Shown piece by piece: positions 6,527 to 51,041 of a stretch of 64,000 bases of DNA. The stretch covers positions 310,001 through 374,000 of the forward strand of contig CP145416.1 of assembly GCA_036867785.1 (NCBI GenBank). Direction: 5' to 3'. The DNA is from Plasmodiophora brassicae. Its lineage: Eukaryota. Each line of letters begins with the position of its first letter. The first letter of the stretch is position 1. Below the pieces are notes generated by a model. The model saw only the letters and a list, made by a program, of their open reading frames with translations, was not told the origin of the DNA and ran no database searches. Made by a program: the position numbers and the translations under genes.

Positions 6527-8706
6527 ATGCAGCGGGTCGCCGTTGCTGCGCTGGTCGCGTGCTGCTCCTGTGCGTGTGCGGGCGACCTGTTCCACGTGGC
6601 GTCGGGCGGGGTCATTGTGGACCAGTTCGGGCGGCAGCGTATCTTCCATGGATTGGTACGCGTCGCGAGCGCCTCGCCGCCGAACGTCGTCGCTGTCTGA
6701 CGGGCGCAGAATGTGGTCGAGAAGGTCCCGCCGTACATCCCGCGACGCGATGCGTTCGATTCGAGTCGGTCCCTAGCAGCGCACGACATCGACCTGCTAC
6801 GGCAATGGGGGTGAGACCGTTCCACTCGCCTTGCCTGGGAGCAGCACTACAGCGGTGGGCACAGGTTCAACGTCGTGCGCCTCGGCGTCCTCTGGGCAGC
6901 CGTCGAGCCCTCACCCGGCCTGTACAACGAGACGTTCTTGGGCGAGATCCGCGGTACGTAACGCTGATCCGCGGGTGGTGCTGACCAATGGACACCGACA
7001 GATCACATGCACAGATCTGGTCGACGAACTGGGCCGGGCTGGCATCTATACAGTGATCGACTCGCACCAGGTACAACCAACCTGCAGTGGCACCAACAAT
7101 ATTATCCTATAACGTTGGTCGCGTTCGTTAGGATTTGATGAACCCATCGTTCTGTGGAGAAGGGTTCCCCGACTGGGCCACCCGTCCCATGCAGACTTCC
7201 TGCGACGGGTACGTCCACTGCCCGCAACCGACGACCTGCGTTTGTAACCGACGTGCGACAGCGTGTTCGCCAAGATTGCCCGGCGCTTGTTCGGCGCCTG
7301 CCAGACTCTGCCCGACCTGGGCGTCTCTGTCGACCCTGTCACCGGGTACGCCAACCGGACCGACTGCCTCAAGACGAACTTTGCCCGATATTACCTAACC
7401 CCCGAAGTCGGATCGGCGTTTGATAACTTCTTCGGCAGCGCAGATCTGCGACTGGCGTTCGCCAAGCAGTGGAACCAGATCGCCCGTGCCCTGTCTGGCT
7501 CCCCGTACGTCGTCGGCTACGACCTGCTCAACGGTACATCAGTGTGTCGGCGGCGAGGCCTGTCTGACTGACTGACAAACCTCACACAGAGCCCTGGATT
7601 GGCAACGTTTGGGACAACATCCGCCTCATAGAGCCTGGCTATGTGGACAGGACCCTGCTGCAGGGCCTGCACCACGATGTGCACAACGCCATTCGCGAAG
7701 CCGACGACAAGACGTTGGTCATCTACGAAGAGACGCAGTTTCCGGATTCGTTCCCGATCTTTGGTGGCCTCGTCCATGAAGTGGGGTTCACTGAGAACCC
7801 TGCTGGACCGCACAGCCCGTACTCGAATCGGACCGTGCTGTCGATGCACAATTACTGTTGCATTGCGAGCCCATCGGCGTGCGATCGCGATGGCAACCCT
7901 GTCGCTTCCGACGCCCACCTATGCGACAAGTATGCCCAGCGCAAGGTGCGGCACACGGTTTCTTGTATGCATGGATTGGCATATAAAGACCTTGACGATC
8001 TCTGTAGATTTCAACGCGGGTGAAGGATAGCCGCCGGCTATCCAGCGGTTTGATGTTGACTGAGTTTGGCGCGTGCATGGACCCGGTCCTATGTCCTCAG
8101 GAGATCACCCGCGTCACGTCGCATGCCGACGACATGCAGCTGTCCTGGATCTACTGGCAGTACAGTAACGAGCAGCGCGCCGTGCAACTGCCCTGCCTGG
8201 CTCTGACCGAAACACCCGCCTAGAGTATTCCGATGACGTTACGACCCAGTCAGGGGACGGTGAAGGGCTCTTCAATGCCGATGGATCTATCCAGATGGAG
8301 AAGCTCCGGGCGTTATCGTAAGACATTCGCTTGGCATTACGCAAAGGTACGTTGCCGTCTGAAGGCATGTGTGCCGTTCTGTAGGCGTACGTATGCACCG
8401 GCGGTTCAGGGGCGGATCCATTCGATGGCGTTTGATGCGACGGCTGCCGCATTCCACCTGGAGTTCACGCTGGACCCGTCTGTGGCGGCTGACACTGAAA
8501 TTTACTTCAACGAAGACCTTCATTACCCGAATGGATACCGCGTTGTCCTGGCACCACCAGATGCCGTGTCGTGGTCCTACGTTGAGCGCAACCGCATCGT
8601 GGTATCCGTTAAGCGGCACACGTCGCTGGCCCAGCTGGACGGCACGCGAATTACCATTGGCATACAAAGGATTCCAAGCAAGCCTGAACGTGTGCAGACG
8701 TTATGA
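6527..8706 (+). CDS. Secreted GH5 glycoside hydrolase, endoglycoceramidase-like, multi-exon
   Basis: Signal peptide MQRVAVAALVACCSCACA, then VDQFGRQRIFHG/NVVEKVPPY, IDSHQD, GEGFPDW, acid/base GYDLLN-EP (intron-split), nucleophile LTEFG, and C-terminal RTYAPAVQG...TEIY. Confidence 0.88.
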
Positions 8707-9292
8707 TCGGCGGGACGATGGAGCCCATGCTGCATGTCCATTATAAACGTTGTCGTGGTGTCGCCGGGCGTTACTATCCGTCCCACGGGCGCAGGTCTCG
8801 TTAGCCCTGTGGGTAATATAGGATCAGACCACCCTTTTCCAACAGTTGCCGAGATGAGATCGACCTACGGTTGTTGCCGCGGATGTCGATGCTGGCGCCC
8901 ATGACGGTCGTCAGACGGGTCAGGGACACCAACGCCCGAGGAAATCGTCCCCGCGTTCTTGTGGGTGTTGATCGTGACCGCCCGTTATTCAGTTGGTGGT
9001 TTCAACACGAGGCTGGACTCTATATCGCTTGGACACGATCAGCATCCAGAAGAACGCAGGTCTTCGAGTTCTTCGGGAGATTTGACCCTGGCACTGCTGA
9101 ACGTATTTCCACAAGAGGTCACCGAACAGGTGACCGTGACGATCGGACCAAGGCAGGCGCATCGTGTGGGCTATGCCATGGTGTCGAGATACCACATGGA
9201 GATCACCGCAACGCCTGTCGACAACAGCCAACTTGCCGCCTGTACTAGGGCCAACCAGGGCATGTGATTATGCTTTATGCGATATGCTTCAT

Positions 9293-11497
9293 TCACCACA
9301 CAAGTCGCTCGTTGTCAATCCGCTCAGACCATAGTGGGTTTGGCCGCTCGACACAGTCGGCATCGGCCTTTCCGTCGTTGGTGTTCACAAAGACCATTGA
9401 CGCCCCCACAGTAAGTGCATCGCGACATTTCTTGCACCGGGCTCTCCTTCGGTCGTGCTGACAGATGCCGCCCCCTCGACACTTCTTGCAGTGGAATCTC
9501 TGTCGGTCGTGTTCACACATGGCACCTCCTCGGCACTCGTTGCACTTGGACCAGCTATGCCGCTCGTGTTGACAGATGCCCTCCTTCCCTCCACAGGCTT
9601 TGCACAAGTAATTGACTCGCCGATGCGCACAGATTCCGGGACCGCCACACGTCGTGCAATCTCCTTTCCGTCGTTCATGTTCACAGTAAGCGTGCGGGCT
9701 GCAAACCCTTTTCCATTGCCCGTTCTCACACCGCCCTCGGAGGCATTTGACCTGCCCATGACGTTCGGATGGCAATGGGTGCACCCTGCGGTCGCTCGTG
9801 GTGGCAGGTTCTTCCGTTGTACCTTGAGTCCGCACTGGTTGAGACGCAAACGGGGCAACACTGCAACCTTCATGGCTGGATGTGGCGACCGATATTACGG
9901 GAGGTGGCGCGCTCGTTCCAATGAACGCAGTATAATCGCCAACCTGAAACTGGGTTGGATTCAGTGTGTCTGGAACGAGGTCGCCTCGGTCGGTGGCGGC
10001 TTGGTTCGGCGGGCACTGGGTCGGCCGTTGCCGTACACCGGAATCAGTAGACAGCACATTCGGGACCGCCATTTGCATCCAGTGCCCAATTTCAGGGAAA
10101 TCCTGCCTCGATAGGAATGCACCGTTGGATTCGTCTGAAATACTCGCTACGGCTTGATGAACTGGGTCACCGAATTCGACAAGGTATGGAACCTGGGTCC
10201 TGGAGAACGTCATTGCCAAGGTGCTCAAAGTGGAGTACTGAAAACCACTGGGGTCGAAAGGAGATCGGGTGTCAATGGGAAGACTATCCCAGTTGGAATT
10301 CGTCGGCCATGAGCTGAAAGTGGCGCCTTGTGGTACTTCGGCTGCGTCCTGCAATTCAAATTCGATAGAACGGGAGGTCATTGGAGATAGGACGTCAATG
10401 GCGCGGTGGTGCCCGTTGGCATTGAGTGGCCACGCGCCTAAAGTGCACTCGGCCTGTAGTACTTGGGCGACGCCTTGCGGTTGAAATTCGCCATGGCAGC
10501 TCTCTTCAATTGGATATTGGCTGTCAATGAGGAGACGTCCGTTGGAGTTGGTAATTGGCCATGCGCTGAACGTGGCGTCTTGTGATATTTCGGCTACGTC
10601 TTGCGTTTGGAATTCGATGGGACAGGGGACAGTTGGAGGTAGGATGTCAATGGCGTGATGCCCGTTGGCATTGGTTGGCCATGCGCCTAAAGCGGTGTCG
10701 TGTAGTAGTACTTCGGAAATCCCTTGCGATGGAAATTGGCACTGGCAAGGTTCGATTGGATCAGGGTGGAAGTCGATGGCAAGGTGCTGGTTGGCGCTTG
10801 TAAATGGCCATGTGCTCAAAGTGGCGTCTTGAGGTGTGTCATCAGGAACGCCTAGCCAGGCAAACCCATTGTAACAGGGGTCCATTAGAGTTTGGATGTC
10901 ACATTGAGGATGCGCGTTGGCGTTTGTGTGCCAGGTGTGAGGTATGCTCTCGTGAAGTATTGCAGTAACGCCTTGCGATCCGAACTCGCCACGACCGGGA
11001 CTGAATCGACCGTGAACCTCAAAGGGAAGGTGCTGCCCGTTGGGGTTCATATGCGACAGAAATTCCACATCGGAAGTGTCGGACGGTAATCCCGGCAGCT
11101 CGATTGGCGACGATATTACGTTTCCGTTGCTGAGGACGCCATTGCCAGCTGACGATGCTGGCCACATGCGACACCCGCCATGGCAGGGGACAGTTCGAGC
11201 ATCGATGTCCACGGGAAGATGCCCGTTGGAATCAGTCAGAGAGATCACATCCGCATGGGTAGAGACGGACGGCAACCCCATGTCGGGGGACACCTGCTGG
11301 GGCGTCGCGGCATTGTGGGGACGCCACCTGACGTCGTCTGCTGTCGCTGCAATCAAGCATTCGGCGTCTCCAACGAGATGGGCAACTGGCCACCATGTCT
11401 CCCGTGTCGCTAACGCTGGACATGCACCCAGGTCAACAGCCGCTGCAGAGCAGGACGTCATGCCGCGCAGGCCAACTCGGGACCTGAAATGGAACAT
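9293..11497 (-). CDS. Hypothetical protein with ~39-aa internal repeats and five C-terminal CxHxRxxxxCxxCxG repeats
   Basis: Single long ORF. C-terminus CEHERRKGDCTTCGGPGICAHRRVNYLCKACGG...CQHDRRRARCKKC. Middle section has repeated WP(T/L)N(A/S)NG units. Start codon uncertain. Confidence 0.7.
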   Translation of the reverse strand: MFHFRSRVGLRGMTSCSAAAVDLGACPALATRETWWPVAHLVGDAECLIAATADDVRWRPHNAATPQQVSPDMGLPSVSTHADVISLTDSNGHLPVDIDARTVPCHGGCRMWPASSAGNGVLSNGNVISSPIELPGLPSDTSDVEFLSHMNPNGQHLPFEVHGRFSPGRGEFGSQGVTAILHESIPHTWHTNANAHPQCDIQTLMDPCYNGFAWLGVPDDTPQDATLSTWPFTSANQHLAIDFHPDPIEPCQCQFPSQGISEVLLHDTALGAWPTNANGHHAIDILPPTVPCPIEFQTQDVAEISQDATFSAWPITNSNGRLLIDSQYPIEESCHGEFQPQGVAQVLQAECTLGAWPLNANGHHRAIDVLSPMTSRSIEFELQDAAEVPQGATFSSWPTNSNWDSLPIDTRSPFDPSGFQYSTLSTLAMTFSRTQVPYLVEFGDPVHQAVASISDESNGAFLSRQDFPEIGHWMQMAVPNVLSTDSGVRQRPTQCPPNQAATDRGDLVPDTLNPTQFQVGDYTAFIGTSAPPPVISVATSSHEGCSVAPFASQPVRTQGTTEEPATTSDRRVHPLPSERHGQVKCLRGRCENGQWKRVCSPHAYCEHERRKGDCTTCGGPGICAHRRVNYLCKACGGKEGICQHERHSWSKCNECRGGAMCEHDRQRFHCKKCRGGGICQHDRRRARCKKCRDALTVGASMVFVNTNDGKADADCVERPNPLWSERIDNERLVW

Positions 11498-27535: not shown

Positions 27536-27694
27536 ATCGGGACGCGGGCCTCGTCGCGGGATCCTCCGTCGAACCGTGCGGCTGGCGTGCTCTCCCACTC
27601 TGCCTCGCCTCTCGACCACGTCACAAAATACAAATTCGTCGAAAACGAATCCCCCGCGCCGCCGCCCGTGGCACCCACTGGCGTCATCAGATCG

Positions 27695-28040
27695 GCTGCA
27701 ACAAAGGCTGCCAGGTCTGCAGCCATTATTGCATCCCACTTTTGCAGCCGGTTGTAGCCAAATCTGCAGCCGGCTGTAGCCAAATCTGCAGCCCTTGCAG
27801 CCGATCGTAGCCAACAGACAGCCGATCGTCCCGATGGTGCAGCCGATCGCCCCCAGTTTTGCAGCCAATTATTCTGCAGTCGAATGCAGCTCACCTGCAG
27901 CCGATCGTCCCCGGTGTTGCAGCCCATTCTGCAGCCGATTGCAGCTAATCTGCAGCTCATTCTGCAGCCAACCCACAGCCGATTGCAGCTAATTGTGCAG
28001 CTGACCGCCCTCCAATTCTGCAGCCGATTGCAGCCGCTTG
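27695..28040. repeat. Degenerate array of TGCAGC(C/T)-cored short units
   Basis: Roughly 20 same-orientation TGCAGCC/TGCAGCT/TGTAGCC cores spaced about 10-20 bp apart, e.g. TTGTAGCCAAATCTGCAGCCGGCTGTAGCCAAATCTGCAGCC. Confidence 0.8.
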
Positions 28041-28172
28041 AGGCTGCGTCAACTTGGATCGACTCGTCTTGCAAATTCATCACCTTGCAGGGCTGGATTC
28101 GCGTTTGGAATGTCCTGCATTTTTTACCATAGGCGACGATTCGGACTTGGTTCCAGCGCTGCAATGATCTGC

Positions 28173-29852
28173 GCGCAACGCGTCGTGAACGCCGAAGTGT
28201 ATCATGAAACGGGTCGGTTGCTCTGTTCGCTTCGTTCTCCGCACCCAGCTAGCATGCTGCAATGATGGCCGACGTCGACCGGGCGGCGGAAGGGCAGCGA
28301 CGTCTCCCGTCGATGTGCGATTCGACGCGATCGGAGGTCCCCCACACGGAGAACAGCTGGACGGGTCCCGAGGACGTCAAGGCGTACCCACTGTTTGTTG
28401 AAATCGCGACGTCCATGACGGATAATTTGCATTTCGACATGGCTGGCTGGCTGGTTTCGGGGCTAACGGAACGCTCAATGGTTCTGGATGTCGGTGCAGG
28501 TGCGCTCGAAGAGATGGACCGGCGCCTCCGGGGGCATGGGTTCTATTTGATCGCGCGCGAGACCGGCCAGCTGGCGTCGATGAGGCCGTTTGGGCACGTT
28601 GTCGCGCAGGGACAGATGGGCGTCTGCAACTGTTAAAAATCTCCCTCGAATGGCTCTAGGACCGGGGCGGTTCGCCATCTCACGTGCTTCATTGCATACC
28701 TTTGCGCTGATATCTCCGACGCCGACCAGCGACCGGAGATATCGCTGGCGTGGGCCTCAGCCTCGTCATTATTATTTCACCAAACAAGATTTGTAATTTG
28801 GTCGTACCGACTCTAGGGTTCTGGCGGAGGTGTTCATTCAATTATGGGGCGAGACTGCCTTGCGGTCCCGATGCTGCCGTCGGCTGTGCTGGCGCTGCAT
28901 CGAGATGTTCCAGTATATCATGGTGCGCGACAGCCAGGAGGTCACGGTGCTGCCGACGGCTCTGCAGACACTGCAGCAGGACGATGAGGAGGGAGGTCCC
29001 ACTATCGATACAGCGATTAGTGGATAGAATCGCTGTATCGATAGTGGGGATCGCTGTATCGATAGTGGGACCTCCCTCCTCATCGTCCTCCTGCAGTGTC
29101 TGCAGAGCCGACGGCAGCACCGTGACCTCCTGGCTGTCGCGCACCATGAGATACTGGAACATCTTGATGCAGCGCCAGCACAGCCGACGGCAGCATCGGG
29201 ACCGCAAGGCAGTCTCGCTCCATAATTGAATGAACACCTCCGCCAGAACCCTAGAGTCGGTACGACCAAATTACAAATCTTGTTTGGTGAATAATAATGA
29301 CGAGACGACCTCGCTGGCACTAGTCCCGGCCCGCTGGTGAACAGTACTGTAGTGTCGGGTGTCTAGTACATAGAATTAAGGTGTCGTGCTGGTGCCCCAG
29401 GTCACGGGCGCTGGAATCTGCATTCGCGCGGTGCAGGCAGCCAGGTCATGGGTGCGAGCGCCAGCCCACCGGCATGTAAGGCGCTGAATACCTGAGGGCC
29501 GAGGACGACGATGGCCCGCGAACCGCGAGCCTGCGCACCCGTCAGGCCGAGAGATGAGAACGGTTCCAGGTGGTTGATGAGGCCCACGCCAGCGATATCT
29601 CCGGTCGCTGGTCGGCATCGGAGATATCAGCGCCGTATCAAAGGTATGCATTGAAGCACGTGGGCCAGTACTCAGCATAATGGCGAACCGCCCCGGTCCT
29701 AGAATCGCACGTCGACGGGAGACGTCGCTACCCTTCCGCCGCCAGGTCGACGTCGGCCATCATTGCGTCATGCTAGCTGGGTGCGGAGCACGAAGCGAAC
29801 AGAGCAACCGACCCGTTTCATGATACACTTCGGCGTTCACGACGCGTTGCGC
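28173..29852. repeat. Nested inverted repeat (fold-back) of ~1.7 kb
   Basis: Reverse-complement pairs: 28173-28323 with ~29702-29852, 28657-28759 with ~29578-29701, and 28762-29017 with 29050-29304. Confidence 0.95.
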
Positions 29853-30021: not shown

Positions 30022-31838
30022 CTATAACGTCGTGTCGAAGGCGTCGACTAATAGTTCTCTGGCGTCGAGGTCGCTTCTGAGCGACCTCGTGGAGAGTTCG
30101 CTCTTGAGCGAGGTCGGGGACGCCGGTTTCATGGCAGTCTGGGCGGCAGCCAGCAGCGCCGTCGCTTCTGCGAGCGATCGTTGCAGGTCGGCGACCTGCT
30201 GCTGTAGGAGCCGGATGTGGGTGTCCTTCGACGCCAGGCCCTGTGCGTCGTGGTCGTTTCGATGGCGGAGCTGCGACGTCAGCAGGCGGGCCTTCCGCAC
30301 CCAGCGGAACCGCTCTTCGCGCAGCGTCAGAAGCGCTTGCTCGGCCAGCTGTCGTTGCGCGCTGAGCTCTTCAGCGCATCGTTGGTGGTCCGCGGGTTGG
30401 GCCTCGCTGATGTCGCTACGGGGCGGCGGCTCCGACGGCGCCGCCCTCCCGGGGACGTCGTCACGCGATGCTTCTCGCAATGTGGACACCTCGGTGCGCA
30501 GCCGCTCGATCTCTTTCTCGAGCGCGTCCGTCCGCGGCGAATGCCGCTCCAGCAACCCGCTGTTGATCGAGTCGGCCCGGCGAAGTTTCCTTTCGTCCAG
30601 GTGGGACAAGTCGGACACGTGTCGTCGATGCCGCGAAACGCGCCCGGACTCGTCGCGACCCTGGACAGACGACGCTGCATCGTCAAACGGTACCGAATCC
30701 GTCGTCGTCGTCGTCGGCGCGCGGCTCAGTGGCTGGCGCACGAGACGCGCGTCACTCGGCAATGCATAGATCTCCATGGCCGACGGCTCGGAATAGAGCA
30801 CGAAGATGGCCGAGTTCGCACCGGAACATACGGTCGATATCACAGCGCGCCGTCCTGGCTGCCCATCCACCATCTGAACCGGGGCGCTCCCATCAGTCAC
30901 GGGCGGGCGTACGACCCGTCCACTGGGACGATATTACGTTGAGGTCCACGAACCCATAGCTGGCTCTGTTGACGGCGTTCCAGCAGTGAACGTCGTTGTG
31001 GGAGTCCAGCGACCAGACGTGGGATCCGTGGCTGACCAGCGACACGATCGGTTGCGAATGCACGTTCAGGACCTGCACGACCGTCTTCTGCGCCGTATCC
31101 CACACAGCCATCGACCCGTCCTGCTGTCCAGAGAACACGGCCGTCGTCGTCGCCAGCACGCAGCGCACCGGCAATCGCGTCCGCCCTCCCGGGCGCCTGG
31201 GCACCGCCAGCCGGTGCAGGATCTCACCCGTCCCGACGTCGAACACAATGAGTCCAGCGTCGCAGGCCGCCCAGACCTCGTCGTCGCCGACCAGCGCCAG
31301 GTCGCGCGCGAAGTCGTCCTGGGCCACCCGCAATGTGACGCCGCCCTGCAGGTCGCGTTGTGTCGTCACCCTGGCGCGTAACACGTTTGGTCAGTACAGG
31401 CGCCCGGCTGGCCACCGCCGCAGCGAGCACAACCGACCCGTTGGAGTCGATGGTCCAGATGGCACTGGGGGCGATGCAGATCCGGGTGACGGCGTGGCGG
31501 CTCTTCGGGACGTGCACGAGCCGTGTCGTGCCGTGCACGTCCCAGGCGCCGAGCTCGCCGTCGCCCATGGCGATCCAGACGCGATGCAGGGGCGCCTGGA
31601 GCGCGATGGCGGTGACCGGGTGCAGGGCGGCCGGCGCCGATTGCGGCACCGGGAACAGCTTACGCAGGAGCTGGCCGGACGAGGCATGCCGGATCGAGAT
31701 GAGGCCGGACGCCGACCCGATCCAGATCGCGTTGCCAATGCGGCACGACGTTATCTGGCGTCCGGCCAGGCGCGTCTGCTTCACCAATTCGTAGTGACGG
31801 CTGAGGGTCCTGGACGGCGTCTTTCGATGCGTCGGCAT
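30022..31838 (-). CDS. Beta-propeller (WD40-like) protein with C-terminal coiled coil, multi-exon
   Basis: IWIGSASGLISIR, VWIAMGDGELGAWD and VFSGQQDGSMAVWD, followed by heptad-rich LEKEIERLRTEVSTLRE and LLQQQVADLQRSL. Confidence 0.7.
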
Positions 31839-48154: not shown

Positions 48155-48390
48155 CGAAGCATTACATTCATATTTTCGCCGTTCCCGACGGGCAACCCGT
48201 GCGAGGACAGGACCCCGCCAGAGATTCCGCTGACACGCGTGGGTGACCGGCCACGTTCGGCCCTGGTTGACTCACCTCACTGTGCCGTGTCACACTGCTT
48301 TCGCCCGTGACGCTGGCGGGCCTGTCCAAAGCAGAAGTCGCCCATAATCTATCGAGCAGACGCTTTGTTATTGTTGCCATCGCTATTGTC

Positions 48391-49227
48391 ATGTCGAGCA
48401 GCCTGCGGCGCGTCGAAGCGTTCCATAGGGCGTCGGCCCCCGGTCGACACGTGGACCCGGATGCGTTCGCCAGGTACGCCGAATGGGACATCAGCAACAG
48501 CCTGTCGCGGTACACGCCCCTGGCTGTACCGCGGGCGCAGCCGCCGCTGGCCAGGCAGGTCTCCATGCAGTCGCACCGTTCGTCGCAGTCGATGCGGTCG
48601 ACGACGACGTCGCTTCGGCGCAGTCGGCGGCATCCCCGAGCCGAGCCGAGCCGGCACGCGACGCGCTCCACGGACGACGCGCAGATCGCCTCGCTGAAAG
48701 CAGCGCTCGTCAACGCCGAACGGCGTTCCCATCGAGACAAGTCCGTCGTCGTCGACTTCAACCGCACCCTCTCGAAGTCGCCGGCGTCGTCGTTGACGCT
48801 GCTGAAGCCATCGTCGTCGTCGACGACGACGACGCCGGACGCCGATGAGCCCGTTGCCGATGTCAAGCCCGCCGTCGACCCGCCGTCGTCGCCAATGACG
48901 CCGGCCAAAGTCGGCTGGGCGGATCAGCAACGGTCGTGGTGGCGCCTGCGACGGCGCCAGCAACGGCGGTACCTGGTCCTGCGGCAGACGTGCCTCGAGA
49001 TCTACGACACGCCGGAAGCGTTCGCCTGTGGGCGCGCGTCTGGGTGCGTCCTGCTGGTCGGGTGCGTGCTGACGTCTGGGAACGGGGCCATCACGTTGCG
49101 GTTCGGGAAGAAGGCGAAACGGTTCCGCACCGACGACTGGGAGGCCTGGTCCAGCGAGCTGAGGCGCGCGATCGCGCGCGCCACTCCCGACAGCCAGTTC
49201 ACCAACGGTCCGACGTTGCCGTTCTGA
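48391..49227 (+). CDS. PH-domain protein
   Basis: C-terminal KVGW...QRRYLVLRQTCLEIY...ASGCVLL...KRFRTDDWEAWSSELRRAI fits a PH fold. Confidence 0.65.
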   Translation: MSSSLRRVEAFHRASAPGRHVDPDAFARYAEWDISNSLSRYTPLAVPRAQPPLARQVSMQSHRSSQSMRSTTTSLRRSRRHPRAEPSRHATRSTDDAQIASLKAALVNAERRSHRDKSVVVDFNRTLSKSPASSLTLLKPSSSSTTTTPDADEPVADVKPAVDPPSSPMTPAKVGWADQQRSWWRLRRRQQRRYLVLRQTCLEIYDTPEAFACGRASGCVLLVGCVLTSGNGAITLRFGKKAKRFRTDDWEAWSSELRRAIARATPDSQFTNGPTLPF

Positions 49228-49329
49228 TCCGCCCCGCCCGCCATCCTGATTGTCCAAACGTATATCTTAACCGGGTCGTTAAACCTTTGTTGCTTTGGTT
49301 GAACGGTTCCGCCTGTGCCGCGGACGCGC

Positions 49330-51041
49330 CTAGACGGGGACGTCGATGACAGTCGTCGACTCGAGCGCCTCCTGGATGGCGAATTGCGCATTCGACGCCA
49401 ACGGGACGCCGCACCTGTCGGCCACGAACGCGATGAAGCAGTCGAGGGCCTTGCCGACGTGTTTCTCGCCGAGCAGGGCGCCCACGAACGGGTACACGTG
49501 CACCATGACTGAAAACGAACCGAAACGGGCGTTAGGGAAGCCCTATTGGCGATGCAAGTACACCCATCCGGGGACATCGTACGGTTATCCATGTGCAATT
49601 CCACGTCCACGCCCGACTGCTTCGCCTTGTTAGCAAAGGCCACGATGTCGTCGACAAAGATCTCGCGCCCGCCAGCAAAGATCTGGTCACGCCCGCTTCA
49701 GCATCGGTGACAGACGCGTCGCGGTTGGACAGGTGCACTGACCAGCAATGGGGCCAGCCCTCGCAGGTCAGCGAAGATAGGCGATACGCGCGGGTCTGAT
49801 AGCAGACCCCCGGTAATGCCTAGCTCCAGGTCGGCCTCTAGGTGGCTGTCGATGCCCATGTACATGCCGGCGGCCTGGCGTGCGGGAGCGGGCCCGATCC
49901 AGTCGAAGACGGCGTTCCTCGTGAACGACGGGCTGTCGCAGTTCAGGTTCATGAACGGGCTAATCAGGACGATCCCGGCAGGCTGCGGCAGAGCGCCCGT
50001 CGCCAGCACGTGGGTGGCCAGGCTAGCGGCCAGGTTGCCTCCCGATGAATCCCCTGGGCCCGCCACGTCAGCCCCATGCGGCGCACACTGCCACGAACGG
50101 TCGCGAACCGGCGATAATGATCTTCCGGGGGCTGATGACCAGATCTTCGAGCAGGTATCGATAGGCGGCCTCGCACTGGTCGGGCGCCGCCGGGAACGGG
50201 CTCTCAGGGCTCAGGCTGTACTCGACGCTGAAGAACGCCAGCTTCAGCGAATGCTTACTGGCCCTGGTCATTAGGGCGCCCATGGAGTCCAGCCATTGCA
50301 GCGCGTCGCCTGCAGTGTTCGATGAATAACGCGACGCGTCGCGCCCTGCAGGGAAACTCGCCTACCGAGGACGAACCCGCCGCCGTGTGCATACAGGACG
50401 ACGACGTCGAAGGTGTCGACAGGTGGCAGGTCGAGGCTGGAGTGGCGATTGAAGATCCAATGGGCGACGAAATCCTCGCGGCGCACCTCGACGTGGTGCG
50501 TGTCGATGGAGTGGAGCATGAAGTCGATCAGGGCATGCGGCCGGTACGGATGCATGCTGGATCGAAAGGTCTCGATCGACGAGCGCAGGGAGTTGAGCAC
50601 TGTCCGCAGCGCCAGCAGGGACGCTTGCGTCACATGACGGACGAAGCGCAGGTTGATCGGGTCCCTGCTGAACGCAATGATGAATCGCGTGACGGCATCG
50701 AGCGTCCAGGGCCATTCGGATCGGCTGCGTCCCGATCCGATCGGGTTGACCATGGGCAGCAGGACCTCCGTCGCCGAATGGTACGTCCCGCGAATCACGC
50801 CGAACGCCGCCGTTCGAATCGGGACCGGGTGCTGCTTGAGCTCGGACACGACCGTGAGCAATTCCCGGACGCTGCGGAATGCGATCGACAGGCTGAGGAG
50901 CGACGACAGTGTCGGCGATGCCGGCTCCTGCACGACGTCGGACGTGTCGATCGCGATCGTCGCGTTGCGTACCTCAGCGTTGGACGCCGCCATGACAGCG
51001 CCGGCGACGACGACGACCACCACCCAGCATAACGATGACAT
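49330..51041 (-). CDS. Secreted or membrane-anchored alpha/beta hydrolase (HSL family; Say1-like esterase), multi-exon
   Basis: Signal peptide, VLYAHGGGF, VEYSLSPE.PFP, GDSSGGNL, LISPF, E-I-F-V-D-D and MVHVYP. Stop TAG at 49330-49332. Confidence 0.88.

What the first reader, a model, noticed from the sequence alone, without database searches (positions are those of the whole stretch)
28173..29852. 1.7-kb fold-back: an inverted duplication with reciprocal deletions, candidate hairpin-RNA locus
Seen: the order is A-B-C-D-loop-D'-E-C'-A'. A is 28173-28323 (about 6 differences from A'). B is 28324-28656 and is absent from the right arm, with a TC microhomology at the junction. C is 28657-28759. 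D is 28762-29017 (about 5 differences in ~255 bp from D'). E is ~29305-29577 and is absent from the left arm. Read inward, the left arm is A-B-C-D and the right arm is A-C-E'-D. Inference: an ancestral ~1.1 kb unit A-B-C-E'-D was duplicated head-to-head and each arm then lost a different block. A transcript would fold into ~500 bp of duplex, a potential Dicer substrate. The unit carries coding-like remnants, so it could silence a parental gene or element in trans. I saw no transposase and no clear target-site duplication.
Basis: partly seen in the sequence, partly recalled or inferred. Interest (0 to 1): 0.75.

Follow-up and report, generated by a model that had tools for sequence, protein, structure and literature searches.

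The report
Hairpin locus yielding phased small RNAs
This folded-back stretch of clubroot-parasite DNA is a broken gene copy that lines up with a published source of 21-base silencing RNAs, and almost every such source checked was also a fold-back, which points to where this parasite gets its double-stranded RNA.

Summary
The fold-back is real and laid out as described. The genome is Plasmodiophora brassicae.

The unit is a copy of DNA from contig C14. It runs from just behind a Band-7 gene into the intron of a small membrane-protein gene with no confident homologue outside this species, then folds back.

Anchoring a 2026 small-RNA study (PMC13547706) to this genome puts its phased 21-nt locus PHAS21-395 at window 28664-29320, 97% inside the arms. 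Two other fold-backs of the same gene family (C14, C11) are also phased loci. Of 37 phased loci tested (of 435), 36 lie in fold-backs, against 1.7% of random intervals. That study found no RdRP and called the dsRNA source unknown; genomic hairpins are the likely answer for its phased loci.

RNA contigs of two studies hold window-specific sequence. Strand, full-length transcript and trans-silencing are not shown. The scan noted many similar fold-backs in this genome before; the notes I saw gave no small-RNA mapping.

The parts
27676..28172 (.). Left flank: internally deleted, truncated copy of a repeat also on C5 and C4. It starts CACTGGCG and has TGCAG-rich subterminal repeats (CACTA-like end, recalled resemblance; no transposase found). 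The fold-back is joined to its broken end.
28173..28323 (+). Arm A. Copy of the DNA starting about 8 nt behind the stop codon of a Band-7/SPFH gene on C14.
28324..28654 (+). Block B, unpaired; lost from the right arm at a TC microhomology; present on C14.
28655..28759 (+). Arm C, with 15- and 6-nt deletions relative to C'.
28762..29017 (+). Arm D, left half of the main 255-bp stem.
28842..29028 (-). Gene remnant in D: 3' half of the intron (29002-29028) and exon 2 (28842-29001) of the small membrane-protein family. Exon 1 is absent and the frame is broken at the start of exon 2 in both arms.
29018..29049 (.). Hairpin tip, inside the intron: 9-nt loop between 21-nt arms (28998-29018 / 29028-29048), then a 21-nt tandem duplication (29029-29049, 29050-29070).
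29050..29304 (+). Arm D', with the second exon-2 remnant at 29066-29225 on the + strand.
29305..29577 (-). Block E, unpaired; lost from the left arm; lies downstream of the small gene on C14.
29578..29703 (-). Arm C'.
29702..29852 (-). Arm A'. It ends within a few bases of the point where A begins; no target-site duplication; the right flank is single-copy.
28664..29320 (.). Mapped position of the published phased 21-nt locus PHAS21-395 (Ctg_7:1031772-1032428, p = 2.4e-7).
   Evidence: Table S6; anchors; 97% in arms

Best explanation
An endogenous hairpin-RNA locus of Plasmodiophora brassicae. Origin (inferred): a ~1.1-kb piece of C14, from just behind a Band-7 gene to the middle of the intron of a small membrane-protein gene, was copied. 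It folded back on itself over a 9-nt loop and was joined to the broken end of a repeat element on C8. Each arm later lost a block (reciprocal deletions shown). Function: the locus is transcribed (shown for A-B-C and E; strand and a single full-length transcript not shown). The RNA folds into long duplexes (computed). Phased 21-nt RNAs come from C-D-D' (published table, mapped here). The cutting enzyme is most likely the Drosha-like PbDRL, with no RdRP needed (inferred from the paper). The same layout underlies nearly all phased loci tested, so genomic fold-backs are the likely dsRNA source for them. Whether these small RNAs repress the C14 relatives is open (about 0.3).
For: Published miRNAs match exactly at the predicted places on C8 and C14, fixing one offset per contig that holds to about 10 nt at several hairpin ends. 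PHAS21-395 then falls 97% inside the arms. 29 of 30 phased loci on C8 and C14 have at least 40% of their length in inverted-repeat arms; random intervals 1663 of 100000; four shifts gave 0 of 30 each. 7 of 7 on a 200-kb C11 stretch, by a coordinate-only fit, next best 3 of 3; three miRNA precursors not used in that fit also land on hairpins there (worked out by hand). All 7 fold-backs of at least 500 bits in 464 kb are phased loci; 0 of 9 weaker ones are. Cross-mapping is minor: of 637 21-mers, 0 match the C14 hairpin exactly and 31 match anywhere in the C14 region. RNA contigs of two studies, which splice a neighbouring intron, hold 28196-28759 and 28196-28720 with 0 differences, while C14 is 88% identical there. 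Two tandem Piwi-domain genes and four RNase III hits are in the genome.
Against: I saw only coordinates and a p-value, not reads; the nearest sequence anchor is 34 kb away and bounds the offset only to about 140 nt on that side. Reads from a palindrome map to both arms and strands, which may favour phasing calls at inverted repeats. Phased loci hold only 5280 of the paper's 78,890 siRNA species, so the bulk is not explained. A, A' and C' are outside the listed locus. The RNA contigs are assembly chimeras with the C14 mRNA through a shared 31-mer, so they give neither level, strand nor transcript ends; the runs are only guessed to be RNA. PHAS21-385 lies in no fold-back. The C8 and C11 stretches were chosen around known fold-backs. 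My RdRP search had no positive control.
Confidence: 0.85

Rival explanations
1. Neutral repair scar. The fold-back arose by accident and is diced only because any transcribed palindrome is diced here; the small RNAs do nothing useful. Hairpins survive in dispensable DNA because hairpins of essential genes would be purged. This is compatible with the best explanation on biogenesis and differs on function.
For: The arms carry unrepaired mismatches and large deletions; only 5 of 14 substitutions give G-U on the + strand and 2 of 14 on the - strand. A diverged lineage has further indels in C and C'. The gene remnant broke before the fold-back. The family sits among transposon debris. Fold-backs are common in this genome.
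Against: Three fold-backs of one small family have different geometry, so they arose independently, and all three are phased loci. The structure is present in two lineages.
Confidence: 0.55
2. Trans-acting suppressor. The hairpin was kept because it represses its parental gene family, or the Band-7 gene through its 3' end, as young Drosophila hairpin RNAs repress young gene families.
For: 6 of the about 10 family copies found lie inside fold-backs. D 21-mers match the closest C14 gene region: 17 of 247 exactly, 73 within 2 mismatches. A 21-mers match the Band-7 3' flank: 36 of 131 exactly, 93 within 1 mismatch. A 10-kb control gave 0 within 2 mismatches. C14-type letters in an RNA contig suggest the C14 copy is transcribed.
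Against: 11 of the 17 exact D matches lie in the shared 31-mer, which is mostly intron. The intact-looking C16 copies get no match within 1 mismatch. A:A' is not a listed phased locus. No expression or cleavage data.
Confidence: 0.3
3. Ordinary fold-back transposon or MITE whose arms are terminal inverted repeats.
For: Both arms end within a few bases of the same point; the left flank is a repeat element; related sequence is dispersed.
Against: The genome search found only the C14 region plus short pieces, and no second copy with these ends (counts are lower bounds). No target-site duplication. No transposase domain in the ORFs scanned. The arms are host gene-flank DNA that continues seamlessly into a Band-7 gene on C14.
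Confidence: 0.07
4. Assembly artefact (read fold-back or misjoin).
For: No listed contig spans the whole locus.
Against: The arms differ by 2-4% and by reciprocal deletions. Both B junctions occur in DNA contigs of two studies. A different published long-read assembly (19 contigs) keeps the same offset on both sides of the locus.
Confidence: 0.02

Closest known systems
PHAS21-395 and the 'phasiRNA-like' loci of P. brassicae (Zhang et al. 2026, PMC13547706; abstract, section 2.2, passages, Tables S1-S8 read)
   Same: By coordinate mapping it is this locus: phased 21-nt RNAs, p = 2.4e-7.
   Different: The paper lists it only as coordinates. It shows one palindromic region as a miRNA source, has no occurrence of 'inverted' in main text or supplement 2, and says the dsRNA source of siRNAs is unknown. 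Figures were not visible to me.
Drosophila hairpin RNAs, e.g. hp-pncr009 with the 825-Oak family, hp58, Nmy (PMC10317233; abstract and two results sections read)
   Same: Long inverted repeats made from pieces of young genes, recurring within one gene family, sometimes far from the parent, cut into 21-22-nt siRNAs.
   Different: They are made by Dicer-2 and have proven targets and mutant evidence. Here there is no canonical Dicer, no target is shown, and such loci appear far denser (7 strong ones in 464 kb, chosen stretches).
Chlamydomonas DCL3 pathway (PMC4817775; passages read)
   Same: A PAZ-less, Drosha-like RNase III makes both siRNAs and miRNAs, many from hairpins in transcripts.
   Different: DCL3 is a Dicer-like protein and many precursors sit in introns or UTRs of coding RNAs; this locus is an intergenic pseudogene fold-back.
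Maize Mu killer (recalled; also named in earlier scan notes)
   Same: A natural inverted duplication of a truncated copy that yields a hairpin RNA.
   Different: Mu killer is transposon-derived, with proven heritable trans-silencing; these arms are host gene DNA and no silencing is shown.

Membership tests
Endogenous hairpin RNA (inverted-repeat siRNA locus) | Long genomic inverted repeat able to form extended duplex | tested here: met
   About 510 bp paired; 0 of 100 shuffles as stable
Endogenous hairpin RNA (inverted-repeat siRNA locus) | Locus is transcribed | tested here: met
   Window-specific A-B-C and E in contigs of two studies that splice a neighbouring intron; level unknown, runs only guessed to be RNA
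Endogenous hairpin RNA (inverted-repeat siRNA locus) | One single-stranded transcript runs through both arms | not testable with these tools
   Only unstranded contigs could be laid
Endogenous hairpin RNA (inverted-repeat siRNA locus) | Phased 21-22-nt small RNAs from the arms | tested here: met
   PHAS21-395 maps to 28664-29320, 97% in arms; from a published table, reads not seen
Endogenous hairpin RNA (inverted-repeat siRNA locus) | Small RNAs fall and precursor rises when the RNase III is lost | not testable with these tools
   The paper shows PbDRL dependence for one miRNA only
Endogenous hairpin RNA (inverted-repeat siRNA locus) | Represses a homologous target in trans | tested here: inconclusive
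   Sequence matches to C14 exist; no expression or cleavage data
Plant-type phasiRNA locus (trigger miRNA + RdRP + Dicer-like; features recalled) | RdRP makes the second strand | tested here: inconclusive
   No PF05183 hit, but no positive control rang; the paper reports RdRP absent
Plant-type phasiRNA locus (trigger miRNA + RdRP + Dicer-like; features recalled) | Precursor is not self-complementary | tested here: not met
   The locus is a near-perfect hairpin
Fold-back transposon / MITE (features recalled) | Dispersed copies with shared termini | tested here: not met
   (lower-bound search)
Fold-back transposon / MITE (features recalled) | Target-site duplication | tested here: not met
   Junction contexts differ
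MicroRNA precursor | One dominant miRNA duplex annotated from the hairpin | tested here: not met
   No Table S8 precursor at Ctg_7:1031240-1032920 (by coordinates); all 13 Rfam matches below gathering score

The most novel reading that the evidence does not exclude
P. brassicae runs RNAi without Dicer or RdRP, fed mainly by hundreds of genomic fold-backs that capture pieces of young genes and mobile DNA. This locus is one of three independent hairpins selected to silence one orphan membrane-protein family: a protist counterpart of the fly hairpin-RNA conflict systems.
Probability: 0.25. Interest if true: 0.85.

Novelty: new member of a known kind. Interest (0 to 1): 0.62.

Why it matters
The one small-RNA study of this crop parasite that I found reports no RdRP and no Dicer and leaves the source of siRNA precursors open. 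Here 36 of 37 of its phased loci tested sit in genomic fold-backs, which gives a concrete answer for the phased class that can be tested with existing reads. It also turns this scan's many unexplained fold-back notes for this genome into checkable loci. For this locus it adds a parent, a plausible origin, and a small gene family hit three times independently. It bears on RNAi-based clubroot control because it indicates what substrate the parasite's own pathway normally processes.

Tried and rejected
No RNA holder was listed as on record; RNA labels were guesses. The two RNA runs show no cover at 28876-29143; a hole in contigs proves nothing and I did not use it. The high contig depth over A-B-C and E (405, 1047) was rejected as an expression measure, and C14-type indels in E as alleles, because shared 31-mers explain both as assembly chimeras.

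Reading the conserved 'WIYPLIA' stretch as protein was dropped: it lies in a 56- or 60-nt GT-AG intron whose removal gave an open frame in 5 of 6 copies examined and matches the annotated proteins. No expression data for splicing were seen.

Protein family searches gave nothing useful: no Pfam match above cut-off; 3 proteins of this species plus one marginal hit at E 0.009; only itself; unnamed atlas clusters at 0.90-0.91 with a low recognition score. No transposase domain was found for the flanking element in 15 ORFs scanned. A first attempt to place C11 against Ctg_8-11 gave only chance fits; Ctg_5 fitted in the wider search. G-U bias does not reveal the strand.

Literature searches listed no paper linking this species' phased loci to inverted repeats, judged from titles and abstract starts; passages of an assembly preprint (10.1101/2024.04.03.587992) had no occurrence of 'inverted'. 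Most subscription papers are outside the library.

Full report
OBSERVATION. The structure is as described. A/A' are 151 bp with 6 substitutions. C/C' have 3 substitutions and gaps of 15 and 6 nt. D/D' are 255 bp with 5 substitutions and one indel. B is missing on the right and E on the left. The D hairpin folds at -538.5 kcal/mol; 0 of 100 shuffles came near. DNA contigs from two other studies span both B junctions, and one of them is a diverged lineage with its own SNPs and indels. No listed contig spans the whole locus.

CONTEXT. The window is C8:310001-374000 of a 25.3-Mb, 20-contig genome. Related proteins carry Plasmodiophora brassicae names. The fold-back lies between the start of a complex I 75-kDa-type gene (27535, minus strand) and the 3' end of an uncharacterised minus-strand gene (ORF 30022-30873). 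Its left edge abuts a truncated repeat that also occurs on C5 and C4. Its right flank is single-copy.

PARENT. A genome search found one full relative, C14:45261-50600. It holds A-B-C and C-E'-D in the predicted order, at 7-11% substitutions, now interrupted by a gypsy pol fragment, a solo LTR and its own fold-back. On C14, A begins about 8 nt behind the stop of a Band-7 gene. D is the 3' part of a small gene on the opposite strand, encoding a 70-100-residue protein with one hydrophobic stretch. About 10 copies were found on C8, C11, C14 and C16. Public databases gave only three proteins of this species and one marginal hit. The gene has a 56- or 60-nt intron. The window's copy is cut inside that intron, lacks exon 1, and has the same broken frame in both arms. 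So C14 is the likely donor and the gene was dead before it folded back. The retained intron piece and the lack of a poly(A) tract favour a DNA route. The 9-nt loop fits snap-back priming, and the flush outer ends fit a palindromic fragment joined at a break. Both are inferences.

SMALL-RNA EVIDENCE. Zhang et al. 2026 (PMC13547706; I saw the abstract, section 2.2, passages, Tables S1-S8, the start of S9 and a word search of supplement 2; no figures) report 21-nt phased RNAs, two Argonautes, a Drosha-like enzyme, no Dicer and no RdRP. They state that the dsRNA source for siRNAs is unknown. My searches found two tandem Piwi genes and four RNase III hits; the RdRP search was blank but had no positive control. 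Their tables use another assembly, so I anchored it. Six listed miRNAs were tried and all six match exactly at the predicted places. Their Ctg_7 is C8 reversed and Ctg_12 is C14 reversed, each with one offset. PHAS21-395 (p = 2.4e-7) then falls at window 28664-29320, 97% within arms. Cross-mapping from C14 cannot explain it: of 637 21-mers, 0 match the C14 hairpin exactly and 31 match the 10-kb C14 region. A, A' and C' are outside the listed locus, and no listed miRNA precursor lies here.

THE PATTERN IS GENERAL. I tested all 19 Ctg_7 loci and 11 of 17 Ctg_12 loci: 29 of 30 have at least 40% of their length in inverted-repeat arms; the miss is PHAS21-385. Random intervals in 264 kb of C8 gave 1663 of 100000. 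Shifts of 3-4 kb gave 0 of 30 four times, though a few shifted intervals may fall outside the fetched DNA. On 200 kb of C11 a coordinate-only fit to Ctg_5 placed 7 of 7 loci (of 36 on that contig) on fold-backs, next best 3 of 3. Three miRNA precursors not used in the fit (miR081-083) also land on hairpins there (by hand). In the other direction, all 7 fold-backs of at least 500 bits in these 464 kb are phased loci and 0 of 9 weaker ones are. Both stretches were chosen around known fold-backs. In total 36 of 37 loci tested, of 435 listed, lie in fold-backs. Two limits apply: palindromes double-map reads, which may favour phasing calls, and phased loci hold only 5280 of 78,890 siRNA species.

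ONE FAMILY, THREE HAIRPINS. The C14 fold-back (48894-49513) has its tip upstream of exon 1 and maps to PHAS21-89 and -90. The C11 fold-back (1022910-1024124) is tail-to-tail and maps to PHAS21-327. This one has its tip in the intron. The different geometries mean independent origins. This could reflect selection to silence the family, or simply tolerance of hairpins in dispensable, transposon-rich DNA. Matches to possible targets are modest. D has 17 of 247 exact 21-mers against the nearest C14 gene region, 11 of them in a mostly intronic 31-mer, and none within 1 mismatch against C16. A has 36 of 131 exact against the Band-7 3' flank.

TRANSCRIPTION. Contigs from two guessed-RNA runs of different studies splice the neighbouring gene's intron. 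They hold 28196-28759 (X7) and 28196-28720 (X8) with no differences, plus most of E. C14 is only 88% identical over A-B-C, so this is window-specific. The contigs are fused to the C14 Band-7 mRNA at the one shared 31-mer, so they show presence only, not level, strand or ends.

COMPARISON. It works like Drosophila hairpin RNAs (PMC10317233; abstract and two sections), which also arise repeatedly from young gene families. It meets the structure, transcription and phased-RNA tests; enzyme dependence, strand and target repression are untested. Chlamydomonas DCL3 (PMC4817775; passages) is a precedent for a Drosha-like enzyme making both RNA classes. It fails the fold-back transposon tests (no dispersed copies, no target-site duplication) and is not a plant-type phasiRNA locus. 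Earlier scan notes describe many fold-backs in this genome, and some suggest the same dsRNA role. Those shown report no small-RNA evidence, and no note contains the terms phasiRNA or PHAS21. One of them coincides with PHAS21-382/383 by my mapping.

VERDICT. A real, transcribed hairpin locus that very probably yields phased 21-nt RNAs (0.85). It is a new member of a known kind, already tabulated by coordinates but not recognised as an inverted repeat in the text I could read. Its value is the link between fold-backs and phased loci, which makes a stated open question directly testable. A regulatory role in trans is possible (0.3) but not shown. Interest 0.62.

Noticed in passing
L024:4894-5513 (C14:48894-49513) and L024:6597-6656: A second fold-back of the same gene family maps to PHAS21-89/-90; a 60-bp hairpin beside it holds Pb-miR176 exactly.
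   Followed up: yes
L044:1204-2418 (C11:1022910-1024124): Tail-to-tail fold-back of two open-frame family copies; maps to PHAS21-327.
   Followed up: yes
C11:1022910-1035027 (L131, L132): Four fold-backs within 12 kb; three map to phased loci and one to the miR082 precursor.
   Followed up: partly
window 29029-29070: The tandem duplication at the hairpin tip is exactly 21 nt, the small-RNA length, so it would keep the phase register; may be chance.
   Followed up: no
L084, C8:1109977-1110584: PHAS21-385 is the one tested phased locus with no fold-back; it appears to lie in coding sequence and may reveal a second dsRNA route or a hairpin target.
   Followed up: no
L049-L052 (C13:389080-400226) and L053 (C5:149600): Four copies spaced 3.7 kb apart with a kinase fragment, an LTR 98.6% identical to the C14 solo LTR, and a CACTG-type end; the same end sits just before the start codon of two family genes.
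   Followed up: partly
L026:4888-5006 with L101-L105 (C5:794888-802166): A longer copy of the left-flank element with a gypsy element and another inverted-repeat-bounded element nested inside it.
   Followed up: partly
L027:5423-6645 and 8084-9329 (C16): A 1.2-kb direct duplication, 97% identical, carrying the two intact-looking family genes that are not in a hairpin.
   Followed up: partly
window 48373-49154: Mapped position of the paper's hc-siRNA-like locus Repeat45 (same offset).
   Followed up: no
L054, L055 (C12:592510-596413): Two Argonaute genes in tandem, as the paper reports.
   Followed up: no
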